Position numbers: made by a program. From contig OZ281495.1 in NCBI GenBank assembly GCA_965637545.1, positions 22,816,001 to 22,880,000 of the forward strand: 64,000 bases of DNA, read 5' to 3'. Numbering within the stretch: position 1 is the first letter of the stretch; the number at the start of each line of letters is the position of its first letter. This stretch comes from Phallusia mammillata. Taxonomy: Eukaryota. Positions 45,001 through 48,000 of the stretch are shown here, piece after piece.

Positions 45001-48000
45001 GTATGATTTACTTGGAGGTTGAGAACCACTGAAGCATATTTAGGTTGGATTTGATTCATGTCATGGATCCGTTTATGCTCGGATCGTCGTCAAAAGTAAA
45101 AACAGTTAGCAAGCACGTTTTTCACAGCCACAGCTATCAGAAGCCGACTTTCTGCGCCAACTGCAACAAGCTCCTTGTCGGATTGGCCAAGCAGGGATAT
45201 CAGTGCAAAAGTAAGTAGGCCTATATAACTTGGTAAACCTCGGTTAATCCGACCCGTTTGGACGAACAAATTGTCCGGATTAACCGATGTCGATTGGTTC
45301 AAGCCTTGCCACATTACAAATCATTTGTTCCTCGAGTTTTGTCCAAATTAGATCCGGATTAACCGAGGTTTACTGTATTACCAAATTGTATCTCATCCAA
45401 GTCATCATTTAGAAATTGGAAGTGCTTACGATTGCCAATTGTTTTCACTTGTTTGCACGTCTGGCCTTTTTACCTTCTTGCTGATGTAACAGTTGACCGA
45501 ATTAGGCTATATTACACAGACACATGCTTATGACCAACGAAGCAGGAAATGTTTTTAAGATTCAGTTACTTTCTGAAATAACTCACTAGAATTAATTTTC
45601 AAATCGTTCTGCAGGATGTGAAATAAACGTCCACAAGAAATGTCGAAAAGAAGTAGAAGACACTTGCATTGAAGTGGTAAGTTTTGTTGAGCTTGATTTG
45701 TTTGCATACCTCCGCATACCTACTTTACATTTGAAGATTGTTGGACACCATAACTTCCTTGCGAAAACATACACACACCCCACATTTTGTGATTTTTGCA
45801 ACAAACTGCTGGCTGGTGTTTTTCACCAAGGACTGCAATGTTCAGGTGAGCGTAGGAACCTGTCCATAAACGTTGCTTCCAAAAAATATATTCGACTTTG
45901 ATGTAACGACCATAAGCGCTCACAACAGAAAATTGTGTGATTCTAAACAAGTTTTGATTCTACATACTAAAGATTTTTTATACGTCGGTTGTATTACCTT
46001 TGCTAGTACATATTTTTCTTGGCAAAAAATTGCGTTAAGTTTTCATAAAACTTTGTTATGCACCTAAAACCGCAGCAGAAATATGCCTTTATCTGCTGAA
46101 ATGAACGTCTTCCAGGCATGTCAAATTGCAATATTACAATATTACTAAAACGACTTACTGTGTGTACAGAATGCGGATCCAATGTCCACGAAAAATGTCA
46201 AGAGAAAATCGAGGTGCAGTGCGCAATGACAAAGGAGAGACTTGAAACGGAGAAATCAAAACAGTCGCCGGCACAGGAAAGCAAACCCGGGTAAAAAAAT
46301 ACTGCCTGTGCGTTTTTAAATTTACATAACATCCTGCACATTTGAAAGTTACATTTTAAAAGAATCCAACAGCTTTTTATGTATCAGATATTCCAACGAT
46401 GAATTTACGTTCGAGAAGATGTCCTCAAGTCCGAAACTCAAACCCAAAGCTCAAAAAGAAGCCCAACAAGAAACGAAATTTGAAACAAGTAACAGTCCAA
46501 TAATAATATGGATATACCCTTCCTACTAAAATTTTACTGTTTCGTTATCAGTGGATCCAAGCCCTGTATTTAAAAAGCAAGAGATTCCTAATCCATCGGC
46601 CGATCAGGGCCTGTCAACCTCAACTCAGTCAAGTCCTGTGTTAAAGCCTAAACATTCACCAAAGGCTACAAGATATCAGCCACCACCGTCATACACAATG
46701 GTAATCAGGGTCTTATTGTATTCAAATATTACTGTACCGTATATGTTATGTTTGAAAAAAATCTCTCTTGATATTAGGACAGTGAATTAACTGATGATGA
46801 AAGAGCAAGGATCATCGCGGAAGAGATTGATCCACCACAGAAGATGCGTTTTTTAGAGAAGCACAGAAAATATGTTATAGCTTTGAGTGTTGCCATTTTG
46901 CTTTTGGTGGTTGTCCTTGCCACTGTACTAGCAATCGTACTAAAGAAAAAATGATCGACACGAAAAATGTTTCAAAAGTTTCAAACCAAAAAGTACTTCA
47001 AACTTTTCTTACATGTTGTTTACAAACTGTAAAATGGACTTTGATGTTTTCCGGTAGTGTCGTGCCTTTCCTATTTTCACAACGCCTAAAAAAGATTTTG
47101 TGTGGGTCAGTGTAGCATATTTGGTTGGTTGTTGTCGTTTTGTTTCCTTGTTTTGTTACTTATGCCCATAGAGAGCTTGTTGTATTGTCCCTACGCATGT
47201 AAAGTGACTATTGTGCAGTTTTTACCATTGAAATAAATGACAAAAGCATCGCACTTTACTGCCTAAGGTTTATGTACAATGCTCGTTTAAGTTGAAGTGG
47301 GATGGTGCGACTTTCTACGTTTTGTGATGTTATCGTATTGCCTCACGTAATACCAGCATAAGCCAATCTGCCAATTACAACCAGGGGAGGCATAGGGACC
47401 AACAAAATGTGATGAACCGAGTTTACCAAATGAATTTATTTTCGTTTTCGACTGAAGCTCCTGTCTCATTGATTTGGGGTGCAGAAAGGTGATCGAAAAT
47501 GGAACTCACTATCCAGTATCCATCATTGCTTTTGCACACAAAACGCGTTATTTCATTTAGTACATGCTCAAGCAATCGATGTTGTCTGACAAGTTTGGCA
47601 ACGTACTACACATGTCTTTCAAAAGCAAGTTTATTTTATTAAACAATCTACTCTCTTCACAGTGATGAGCCTGGTGCTGGAAAGTTCACCAGCTAAGGAT
47701 TGACCCAGAGATGCAAAACGTGTATGGCAAGATAACAGCAAGCAATATGTACAGGCGCAAAACAAACTGTTTAATCCAAATACCTTCGAAATTATATTAC
47801 TACGAGACAAAACATAATAAACTATTATGTGGGACAAATTTACTCAAACTTATTTTATTGTCAATCTAAGTGATTATCAGGTATTTGGATTTAACAGAAA
47901 ACATTAATATCACTCGAAACTACTCATGCGGAACACATTAGGTAAAGTCATGGATGTGGCTCTCGGTTTGGCTACAACTACGTACAAAATTACCCTAATC

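What the first reader, a model, noticed from the sequence alone, without database searches (positions are those of the whole stretch)
45063..46954. SNARE-less paralogue: C1-C1 tail-anchored protein with a PPxY motif
Seen: it shares intron positions and exon lengths with the C1-VAMP gene (62-nt and 109-nt exons identical in size; next exon ends CCC GG| in both; HNF..TY..PTFCDFC and EC..NVHEKCQ conserved) and ends in a similar basic+TM tail. It lacks the SNARE helix and the NPFs and has QPPPSY instead. Established: PPxY recruits WW domains such as Nedd4-type ligases. Inference: a duplicate that lost the fusion module and may act as a DAG-responsive decoy, adaptor or ubiquitination scaffold, making a two-component family with the VAMP copy.
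Basis: partly seen in the sequence, partly recalled or inferred. Interest (0 to 1): 0.65.

Follow-up and report, generated by a model that had tools for sequence, protein, structure and literature searches.

The report
SNARE-less copy of ascidian C1-VAMP gene
This is an intact seven-exon gene for a membrane-anchored protein with two lipid-sensing C1 domains, an old copy of the neighbouring vesicle-fusion (VAMP) gene that has lost the fusion helix, so it can probably sense the lipid signal but not fuse membranes.

Summary
Window 45063-46954 (+) is a clean seven-exon gene of 867 coding nt with AG/GT at all six introns. It encodes two complete C1 domains, an S/P/K-rich linker with one PPSY, and a C-terminal membrane span followed by KKK and stop.

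It shares the 62-nt and 109-nt exons, the CCC GG| exon end and all intron phases with the C1-C1-synaptobrevin gene at 53485-57656. That gene has one extra exon of 78 nt (phase 0/0) coding the first half of the SNARE motif. Pfam and profiles built from relatives find no SNARE signal in gene A or elsewhere in the window, apart from the neighbour's two exons.

Relatives are uncharacterised ascidian C1-C1-synaptobrevin proteins from Ciona, Styela and Clavelina. One Clavelina protein lacks the same 26 residues.

Synonymous sites between the two window genes are saturated, while all zinc ligands are kept. Gene A is therefore an old duplicate under constraint, not a fresh pseudogene.

The PPxY reading is weak. 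The motif is absent from 10 of 10 relatives, and 7.2% of shuffles of that exon produce one.

Most likely it is a non-fusogenic, tail-anchored C1 protein that acts as a tether or competitor. The function is inferred, not shown. The joined protein was never built; all searches were exon by exon.

The parts
45063..45210 (+). Exon 1. Start codon, a short N-terminus beginning M-D-P-F, and the N-half of C1a. Ends in phase 1.
   Evidence: Pfam C1_1 5.2e-09, profile positions 1-32. Aligns with gene B exon 1 from its third NPF onwards, score 131, 0 of 1000 shuffles reach it.
45615..45676 (+). Exon 2 (62 nt). C-half of C1a plus CIEV, the first part of the family's inter-C1 linker.
   Evidence: Same size and phase as gene B exon 2. 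C-x4-H-x2-C-x7-C present. Pfam C1_1 positions 34-51, below the cut-off on its own.
45737..45845 (+). Exon 3 (109 nt). Rest of the linker (IVGH) and the N-half of C1b.
   Evidence: Same size and phase as gene B exon 3. 23 of 36 residues identical to B3. Pfam C1_1 2.9e-09. Closest solved structure is the PKC beta C1B region, 3pfq.
46170..46290 (+). Exon 4 (121 nt). C-half of C1b and the start of the linker. Ends CCC GG| in phase 2.
   Evidence: 13 of 17 C1 residues identical to B4. Same exon end as gene B.
46388..46488 (+). Exon 5 (101 nt). Charged linker containing F-E-K-M, which resembles the family's F-x-x-M-P linker motif.
   Evidence: No Pfam family. No significant alignment to B5, 606 of 1000 shuffles reach the score. 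Motif placement by MAFFT only.
46552..46700 (+). Exon 6 (149 nt). S/P-rich linker ending in the PPSY motif.
   Evidence: 10 Pro and 8 Ser in 49 residues. No Pfam family. PPxY not beyond chance.
46778..46954 (+). Exon 7 (177 nt, phase 0). 31 polar residues with a Pro-Pro, a basic juxtamembrane stretch, a 24-residue membrane span, then KKK and stop.
   Evidence: for hydropathy. Same position, phase and near-identical size as gene B's last exon (180 nt). tblastn B8 to 46841-46951 gives E 2.4e-4 uncorrected, but E 0.89 with composition correction. No SNARE signal.
47232..47237 (+). AATAAA, a likely polyadenylation signal 278 nt after the stop.
   Evidence: pattern only. No transcript data.
53485..57656 (+). 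Paralogue gene B. Three NPF motifs, C1-C1, linker, R-SNARE motif (exons 57252-57329 and 57477-57656) and a membrane span. The 78-nt exon at 57252-57329 is the one with no counterpart in gene A.
   Evidence: B7 hits Pfam Synaptobrevin positions 12-37 and B8 positions 38-88. 89 of 105 C1-module residues identical to the Ciona intestinalis protein P0153.

Best explanation
Gene A is an intact, old duplicate of the ascidian-type C1-C1-synaptobrevin (C1-VAMP) gene that lies 6.5 kb downstream.

Shown: it keeps the tandem C1 module, the disordered linker and the C-terminal membrane anchor. It has no counterpart of the 78-nt phase-0/0 exon that codes the N-half of the R-SNARE motif, and the stretch in front of its membrane span no longer resembles the C-half of the motif.

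Inferred: the product is a tail-anchored protein whose two C1 domains face the cytosol. The C1 domains keep all 16 zinc ligands and Pro11, Gly23 and Gln27 of lipid-binding C1 domains, so they probably still bind diacylglycerol-type lipid, perhaps weakly because position 22 is Val or Ala.

Most likely mechanism (inferred): anchored in the same kind of vesicle or organelle membrane as its SNARE paralogue, it can engage DAG-rich membrane but cannot zipper with Q-SNAREs. It would then act as a non-fusogenic tether or as a competitor of the C1-VAMP. The single PPSY may add turnover control.

My odds: about 0.9 for the identity and origin, about 0.35 for the tether/competitor mechanism.
For: - Gene model: 7 exons, 867 nt, all AG/GT.
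- Paralogy: identical 62-nt and 109-nt exons, the same exon-4 end and the same phases. A1-A4 versus B1-B4 each beat 1000 of 1000 shuffles.
- Domain-to-domain matching: A3 matches B3 best (58.9 bits, against 41-42 for the C1a exons), and A1 matches B1 best (55.1 bits). The gene was therefore copied after the C1a/C1b tandem arose.
- Family signature C[IV]E[VL]xxGxHxF with a 7-residue linker: found in 8 of 162 held proteins, and those 8 are exactly the full-length tail-anchored family members. Gene A has CIEV at the end of exon 2 and IVGHHNF at the start of exon 3.
- C1-module identity summed over exon-wise counts: 59-65% to the canonical ascidian C1-VAMPs, against 47-49% to three other C1-C1 proteins.
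- SNARE loss: no Pfam Synaptobrevin on A5-A7 at E<=10. The family profile of the C-half scores -1.5 bits on A7, and 1167 of 2000 shuffles do as well. Family SNARE profiles run against 3330 six-frame pieces of the whole window find only B7 (7.5e-8) and B8 (7.9e-12), with the next best at E>=0.53.
- Constraint: pS 0.82 (saturated) against pN 0.21 over 105 C1 codons. Both zinc motifs are complete.
- Tail anchor: a single 24-residue uncharged run followed by KKK and stop, with no other hydrophobic stretch.
- Precedent in a second ascidian: Clavelina P0031 is C1-C1-TM without a Pfam Synaptobrevin domain. Relative to P0155 it lacks 26 residues that coincide, to within one alignment column, with exon B7.
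Against: - No transcript or protein evidence was available, so the model rests on sequence alone.
- No close orthologue of gene A turned up. The best family hit in the exhaustive search scored 76.7 bits, so conservation of the SNARE-less state and of the linker cannot be tested.
- The dN/dS contrast covers both branches together, so constraint on A alone is not isolated.
- A's C1 module has drifted about twice as far as B's: 59-65% against 77-85% identity to canonical members. This could mean relaxed selection.
- Position 22 of both C1 domains is Val or Ala rather than the Trp or Tyr of PKC C1B. That residue is reported to change DAG affinity about 100-fold (PMC4756072, passage read), so DAG binding may be weak.
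- Similarity of the last exons is not significant after composition correction: E 0.89, and no alignment to P0007.
- The per-exon tree of C1 N-halves is unresolved.
Confidence: 0.55

Rival explanations
1. PPxY adaptor. The protein's main job is to recruit WW-domain proteins such as Nedd4-type ubiquitin ligases to a DAG-marked membrane through its PPSY. This can coexist with the best explanation.
For: PPSY is present in an S/P-rich, probably disordered and cytosol-facing linker about 90 residues from the membrane span. That PPxY binds group I WW domains is established knowledge, recalled here. Only 2 of 162 held C1 proteins have any PPxY.
Against: One copy only. 0 of 10 family relatives have PPxY or [LP]PxY. 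1440 of 20000 (7.2%) shuffles of the exon-6 peptide create a PPxY, because the exon has 10 Pro and 2 Tyr. No orthologue is available to test conservation, and no binding was tested.
Confidence: 0.15
2. Decaying duplicate. After losing the SNARE exon the copy is non-functional or on its way to becoming a pseudogene, and the open frame is a leftover.
For: The C1 module is about twice as diverged as gene B's. The linker and the stretch before the membrane span are unalignable with relatives. No orthologue was found.
Against: Synonymous sites against gene B are saturated (pS 0.82). Even so, the 289-codon frame, all 12 splice dinucleotides, all 16 zinc ligands and Pro11/Gly23/Gln27 in both C1 domains are intact, with pN at 0.21. 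A hydrophobic anchor and a terminal KKK are also kept.
Confidence: 0.12
3. Incomplete model. Real transcripts restore a SNARE motif through an exon missed here, or by read-through splicing into gene B's exons 7 and 8.
For: Exon 6 of A ends in phase 0 and exon 7 of B starts in phase 0, so such a splice would stay in frame.
Against: No second SNARE-like coding piece exists in any frame of the 64-kb window. Intron 6 of A is only 77 nt. Gene A has its own terminal exon with anchor, stop and an AATAAA 278 nt downstream. A guanidino-kinase gene on the opposite strand, and gene B's first six exons, lie in between.
Confidence: 0.06
4. Unrelated C1 protein. The C1 domains belong with PKC, PKD or another C1 family, and the resemblance to the neighbour is convergent.
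For: The highest single-exon identity of A3 is to a C1-C1-WW protein, P0008, at 68% over 32 residues. The 31-column tree does not place A3 inside the family's C1b clade.
Against: Shared exon sizes, phases and exon-4 end with gene B. The family-only linker signature. Summed C1 identity of 59-65% to the family against 47-49% to P0008, P0022 and P0005. The same C-terminal anchor exon layout.
Confidence: 0.02

Closest known systems
Ascidian C1-C1-synaptobrevin proteins. These are database entries without described function: Ciona intestinalis LOC144744113 (P0153), the Ciona savignyi 'Phorbol-ester/DAG-type domain-containing protein' (P0004), two Styela clava proteins (P0007, P0152) and two Clavelina lepadiformis proteins (P0154, P0155). 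Gene B of this window belongs with them.
   Same: Tandem C1 domains joined by the 7-residue CIEVxxGxH linker, a disordered linker, and a C-terminal membrane anchor. With gene B, also the same exon sizes and phases.
   Different: No R-SNARE motif at all, no N-terminal NPF motifs, a unique PPSY, and a C1 module about twice as diverged.
Clavelina lepadiformis 264-aa 'unnamed protein product' (P0031)
   Same: C1-C1-linker-TM with no Pfam Synaptobrevin domain. It lacks 26 residues that match the exon missing from gene A.
   Different: Only 56 of 105 C1-module residues are identical to gene A. Its partner P0155 differs at 4 of the first 128 residues (my count), so it may be a recent local copy or a gene-model variant. 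It keeps part of the C-half of the motif, has no PPxY, and its C1b lacks the P-T-F of typical C1 domains.
Non-SNARE isoforms of human VAMP7/TI-VAMP made by exon skipping (PMC3123573, abstract read)
   Same: Products of an R-SNARE gene that keep the N-terminal regulatory domain and lack the SNARE motif. The authors propose regulatory roles opposite to the full SNARE.
   Different: Those are splice isoforms of one gene with a longin domain. Here the state is fixed in a separate gene, and the regulatory module is a C1 tandem.
Typical C1 domains of protein kinase C (PKC beta 3pfq, PKC delta C1B 1ptq/1ptr)
   Same: Full H-x12-C-x2-C-x13-C-x2-C-x4-H-x2-C-x7-C motif with Pro11, Gly23 and Gln27. These are the best solved matches for exons 1 and 3.
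   Different: No kinase or C2 domain. Val or Ala sits at position 22 where PKC C1B has Trp or Tyr. The protein is membrane-anchored by a C-terminal span.
Munc13/UNC-13 C1 domain as DAG-dependent regulator of SNARE-mediated release (from the listings and from recall)
   Same: DAG sensing coupled to vesicle docking and priming. This is a model for what a C1 module next to SNARE machinery could do.
   Different: Munc13 is a large soluble MUN-domain protein, with no homology outside the C1 domain.

Membership tests
C1 domain (Pfam PF00130, 'typical' lipid-binding type) | Zinc motif H-x12-C-x2-C-x13/14-C-x2-C-x4-H-x2-C-x7-C, present twice | tested here: met
   N-halves found in exons 1 and 3, C-halves in exons 2 and 4. 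Pfam C1_1 5.2e-09 and 2.9e-09 for the N-halves, and 8.2e-11 for the exon 2-intron 2-exon 3 read-through.
C1 domain (Pfam PF00130, 'typical' lipid-binding type) | Pro11, Gly23 and Gln27 of ligand-binding C1 domains. The rule is recalled, not taken from a call. | tested here: met
   Read from the motif strings printed: P at position 11, G at 23 and Q at 27 in both domains.
C1 domain (Pfam PF00130, 'typical' lipid-binding type) | Aromatic residue (Trp or Tyr) at position 22, which tunes DAG affinity (PMC4756072, passage read) | tested here: not met
   Val in C1a and Ala in C1b. The whole ascidian family has Val there.
C1 domain (Pfam PF00130, 'typical' lipid-binding type) | Actual binding of DAG or phorbol ester | not testable with these tools
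   Needs a lipid-binding or translocation assay.
Ascidian C1-C1-synaptobrevin (C1-VAMP) family | Tandem C1 domains with the 7-residue linker signature C[IV]E[VL]xxGxHxF | tested here: met
   The signature occurs in 8 of 162 held proteins, all of them full-length family members. Gene A has CIEV at the end of exon 2 and IVGHHNF at the start of exon 3.
Ascidian C1-C1-synaptobrevin (C1-VAMP) family | Gene structure shared with the window's bona fide member, gene B | tested here: met
   62-nt and 109-nt exons, the CCC GG| exon end, phases 1,0,1,2,1,0 and a terminal phase-0 anchor exon of 177 against 180 nt. Intron 5 is matched by phase only.
Ascidian C1-C1-synaptobrevin (C1-VAMP) family | Synaptobrevin / R-SNARE domain in front of the anchor | tested here: not met
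   Gene A is therefore a derived, SNARE-less offshoot of the family and not a C1-VAMP proper.
R-SNARE / synaptobrevin (Pfam PF00957) | Heptad SNARE motif of about 53 residues with a central Arg layer | tested here: not met
   No Pfam hit at E<=10 for A5, A6 or A7. No match to exon B7 anywhere in the window, best E 0.26. Family profiles find nothing. The pre-anchor stretch contains a Pro-Pro.
Tail-anchored membrane proteins | A single membrane span at the extreme C-terminus, with no other hydrophobic segment and no signal peptide | tested here: met
   Uncharged run at residues 32-55 of the exon-7 peptide, followed by KKK and stop. The best 19-residue hydropathy of exons 1-6 is <=0.60.
PPxY adaptors of WW-domain (Nedd4-type) ligases | Accessible PPxY motif | tested here: met
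   PPSY at residues 44-47 of the exon-6 peptide, in an S/P-rich linker.
PPxY adaptors of WW-domain (Nedd4-type) ligases | Motif conserved, or more frequent than chance | tested here: not met
   0 of 10 relatives carry it. 7.2% of 20000 shuffles of the exon produce one.
PPxY adaptors of WW-domain (Nedd4-type) ligases | Binding to a WW domain | not tested
   No complex job was sent, because the report does not claim binding.

The most novel reading that the evidence does not exclude
Ascidians carry an undescribed pair of tail-anchored C1 proteins. One is a v-SNARE with a built-in DAG sensor (C1-VAMP). The other is a SNARE-less partner made again and again by dropping the same symmetric 78-nt exon: once in the window's lineage (gene A) and once in Clavelina (P0031). 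The SNARE-less copy would act as a DAG-dependent brake or tether that sets how much C1-VAMP-driven fusion a DAG signal triggers. That would be a genetically hard-wired version of what VAMP7 achieves by exon skipping.
Probability: 0.2. Interest if true: 0.7.

Novelty: new variant of a known kind. Interest (0 to 1): 0.45.

Why it matters
C1 domains and R-SNAREs are both textbook modules. A v-SNARE that carries its own DAG sensor, and a sister gene that keeps the sensor and anchor but has shed the fusion helix, were not described in any paper found by four full-text searches.

If the pair works as sensor-SNARE and sensor-only competitor, it offers a simple natural system for asking how lipid signals gate vesicle docking as opposed to fusion. 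It is also a clean example of domain loss through loss of one symmetric exon.

If gene A is merely a drifting duplicate, the finding is an ordinary lineage-specific paralogue.

Tried and rejected
- word-indexed search with the exon 2-intron 2-exon 3 read-through, 'longer' lengths. Only 5 candidates, and one PKD3 hit. Uninformative.
Names came instead from the profile search.
- ML tree of 43 C1 N-halves over 31 columns. 19 of 39 inner branches are open, and A1 and A3 sit in polytomies. It cannot decide the placement.
- composition-corrected BLASTP of exon 7 against P0007 gave no alignment, and against B8 gave E 0.89. Sequence homology of the last exons is therefore not shown. Only position, phase and size support it.
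- looked for a remnant of the SNARE C-half in exon 7. None found.
- looked for NPF-bearing coding pieces within 2.5 kb upstream of exon 1. None found.
- searched with the tail of Clavelina P0031 for further SNARE-less relatives. Only P0031 and P0155 came back.
- ESM Atlas on the C1-C1-WW protein P0008, to learn its taxon. Scores were 0.75-0.78, which are leads only, so this was dropped.
- alignment of the linker exons. Exon 6 was misplaced onto the C1 region, so positional homology of intron 5 is not established.
- Considered and not done: a fold of single exon peptides (not meaningful), and a complex prediction of PPSY with a WW domain (no binding is claimed).
- The exons were never joined. 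There is therefore no whole-protein search, fold or tree for gene A.
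Full report
**Scope and limits.** The window has no N. Its closest protein relatives are ascidian, so nothing here was taken for human. Every search, alignment, profile test and tree used single exon peptides. The one exception is the contiguous window stretch 45617-45844, which reads through the 60-nt, stop-free intron 2 and so contains 20 intron-coded residues. As a result there is no whole-protein search, fold or phylogeny for gene A.

**The observation.** Reading 44700-47300 and translating exon by exon gives seven exons:
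- 45063-45210
- 45615-45676
- 45737-45845
- 46170-46290
- 46388-46488
- 46552-46700
- 46778-46954

They sum to 867 nt. All six introns are AG/GT, with phases 1,0,1,2,1,0. An AATAAA lies 278 nt after the stop.

The neighbour, gene B, has eight exons between 53485 and 57656 with phases 1,0,1,2,1,0,0. Exons 2 and 3 are 62 and 109 nt in both genes. Exon 4 ends CCC GG| in both, and the three split codons in the C1 region give R, E and G in both.

Exon-wise alignments A1-A4 against B1-B4 beat 1000 of 1000 shuffles each. The two linker exons do not (606 and 482 of 1000 shuffles reach the score). Pfam finds C1_1 in A1-A4 and nothing in A5-A6. It finds no Synaptobrevin in A7 at E<=10, while B7 and B8 match Synaptobrevin profile positions 12-37 and 38-88.

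**What exactly differs.** Gene B has one exon more: 57252-57329, 78 nt, phase 0 on both sides. It codes the N-half of the R-SNARE motif. Gene A goes from exon 6 (ending in phase 0) over a 77-nt intron straight into its terminal exon. That exon has the same phase and almost the same size as B's terminal exon (177 against 180 nt).

No second copy of the 78-nt exon exists in the window. tblastn gives a best non-self E of 0.26. Profiles of the SNARE N-half, C-half and whole motif were built from nine database relatives only. Run against 3330 six-frame pieces of all 64 kb, they recover B7 (7.5e-8) and B8 (7.9e-12) and nothing else (next best E>=0.53).

The 33 residues in front of A's membrane span score -1.5 bits against the family's C-half profile, and 1167 of 2000 shuffles do as well. 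They also contain a Pro-Pro.

Similarity of the last exons is confined to the basic juxtamembrane stretch and the span. It reaches E 2.4e-4 uncorrected but only E 0.89 with composition correction. The SNARE motif is therefore gone, not merely weakened. Homology of the last exons rests on position, phase and size.

Gene A also lacks B's three NPF motifs. Its start, M-D-P-F, aligns with B's third NPF. No NPF-coding piece lies within 2.5 kb upstream.

**The family.** An exhaustive HMMER search of 1.84 billion representatives with the read-through query gave 509 hits at E<=1e-3, of which the best 150 were listed.
- Among the 151 proteins then held, 9 have a hydrophobic C-terminus, and 5 of those are relatives.
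- Pfam shows C1_1 x2 plus Synaptobrevin in P0004, P0007 and P0010. The fragment P0078 has one C1_1 plus Synaptobrevin. P0031 has C1_1 x2 only.
- A profile search then returned 15 proteins at E<=1e-5 among 3502 candidates. Eight carry both PF00130 and PF00957.
- The named ones are from Ciona savignyi, Ciona intestinalis, Styela clava (two) and Clavelina lepadiformis (two, plus P0031). The databases call them 'uncharacterized protein', 'Phorbol-ester/DAG-type domain-containing protein' or 'protein kinase C-like'.
- All full-length members share a 7-residue inter-C1 linker with the signature C[IV]E[VL]xxGxHxF. It occurs in 8 of 162 held proteins and in no other held protein. Gene A carries it across the exon 2/3 boundary.

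Over the 105 C1-module positions, with counts made exon by exon and then added:
- Gene B is 77-85% identical to the canonical members of all three ascidian orders.
- Gene A is 59-65% identical to those members, and 61% (64 of 105) identical to B.
- Gene A is 47-49% identical to three other C1-C1 proteins.

The window is therefore most likely from an ascidian that is not itself in the protein collection. B3 is 32 of 36 identical to the C. intestinalis protein.

Four full-text searches found no paper on a C1-bearing VAMP. Subscription journals are not covered by those searches.

**Age and constraint.** Between A and B, the four ungapped C1 blocks have pS 0.82 (saturated) and pN 0.21. A is no closer to B than to the Ciona proteins (64 against 68 of 105). 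The duplication is therefore old, possibly older than the split from Ciona. A 31-column tree cannot resolve this. Despite that age, the frame, all splice dinucleotides, all 16 zinc ligands and Pro11/Gly23/Gln27 of both C1 domains are intact. This argues against a neutral relic. The estimate covers both branches together, and A's C1 module has drifted about twice as far as B's.

**A second SNARE-less copy.** Clavelina P0031 (264 aa) differs from P0155 (298 aa, with a Synaptobrevin domain) at 4 of the first 128 residues by my count. It is about half identical after that. It lacks 26 residues that coincide, to within one alignment column, with exon B7, plus 6 more before the span. P0031 is reported on a contig of the same length as the one holding the canonical Clavelina gene P0154. 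A search with its tail found only itself and P0155. Whether it is a separate gene, a splice form or a model artefact could not be checked. It does show that the same symmetric exon is the one that drops out.

**How it most likely works.** Shown: two complete C1 domains, a disordered linker, and one C-terminal span followed by KKK. This is a tail-anchored topology with the C1 tandem in the cytosol.

Inferred: the C1 domains look ligand-competent. The closest solved matches are PKC beta and PKC delta C1 domains. However, they have Val and Ala at position 22, where Trp against Tyr is reported to change DAG affinity about 100-fold (PMC4756072, passage read).

Without a SNARE motif the protein cannot pair with Q-SNAREs. 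Anchored like its paralogue, it could hold its membrane at DAG-rich sites without fusing, or compete with the C1-VAMP for those sites. The human VAMP7 gene makes non-SNARE isoforms by exon skipping, and its authors suggest opposite regulatory roles for them (PMC3123573, abstract read). Gene A would be the same idea fixed in a separate gene.

I put about 0.9 on the origin and architecture and about 0.35 on this mechanism.

**The PPxY idea.** PPSY is really there. However, 0 of 10 relatives have one. Because exon 6 is Pro-rich, 1440 of 20000 shuffles create one. It remains a testable hypothesis with no support beyond the motif.

**Verdict.** The 'duplicate that lost the fusion module' reading is supported and sharpened to the loss of one 78-nt exon plus decay of the rest of the motif, an old event with a parallel in Clavelina. 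The functional reading is open. I rate it a new variant of known kinds (C1 protein, R-SNARE derivative), of moderate interest mainly because the parent C1-VAMP family is itself undescribed.

Noticed in passing
window 53485-57656 (+): Gene B is itself unusual: a brevin-type R-SNARE with three N-terminal NPF motifs and a tandem C1 module. Its true start is uncertain. A strong acceptor at 53541/53542 sits just before the first NPF, and the in-frame ATG at 53485 would add 20 hydrophobic residues that read like a translated polypyrimidine tract. The C. intestinalis relative starts two residues before its first NPF.
   Followed up: partly
window 49329-51023 (-): Exons of an ATP:guanido phosphotransferase (creatine/arginine-kinase type) gene lie on the opposite strand between gene A and gene B. 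Pfam ATP-gua_PtransN scores 3.9e-23 and ATP-gua_Ptrans 2.3e-18 and 1.8e-16.
   Followed up: partly
window 45233-45251 / 45355-45373: A perfect 19-nt inverted repeat with 103 nt between the arms, plus a nested imperfect one, lies inside intron 1 of gene A. It looks like a small MITE-type insertion. A similar 19-nt pair lies at 47767-47785 / 47879-47897, downstream of the gene.
   Followed up: no
window 45677-45736: Intron 2 of gene A is 60 nt long, in frame and free of stops. If retained it would insert 20 residues between the C1 domains. All relatives have the 7-residue linker, so splicing is expected.
   Followed up: partly
P0002, P0003, P0005, P0008, P0022 (hits): Other top matches to gene A's C1 exons carry C1 tandems fused to different membrane-traffic modules: annexin (with four C1 domains), the Senescence/spartin domain, PX plus SH3, and a WW domain. 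Their organisms are unknown. The C1-C1-WW protein P0008 has the single highest identity to exon 3, at 68% over 32 residues.
   Followed up: partly
linker of the family; window 46388-46488 and 56839-57011: The relatives share a short linker motif F-x-x-M-P (6 of 10), with variants in 3 more. Gene B has F-A-P-I-H at the start of exon 6, and gene A has F-E-K-M-S in exon 5. Its function is unknown.
   Followed up: no
P0155 versus P0031 (Clavelina lepadiformis): The pattern is mosaic: 4 differences in the first 128 residues, then about 50% identity. This suggests gene conversion, a partial duplication or a chimeric gene model.
   Followed up: partly
window 30818-42000 (+) and 60620-63844 (+): The flanking genes are a long multi-exon TPR-repeat gene upstream (TPR_17, 1.7e-05) and a TFIP11-like gene downstream (TIP_N 4.8e-10, G-patch 1.4e-16).
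   Followed up: no
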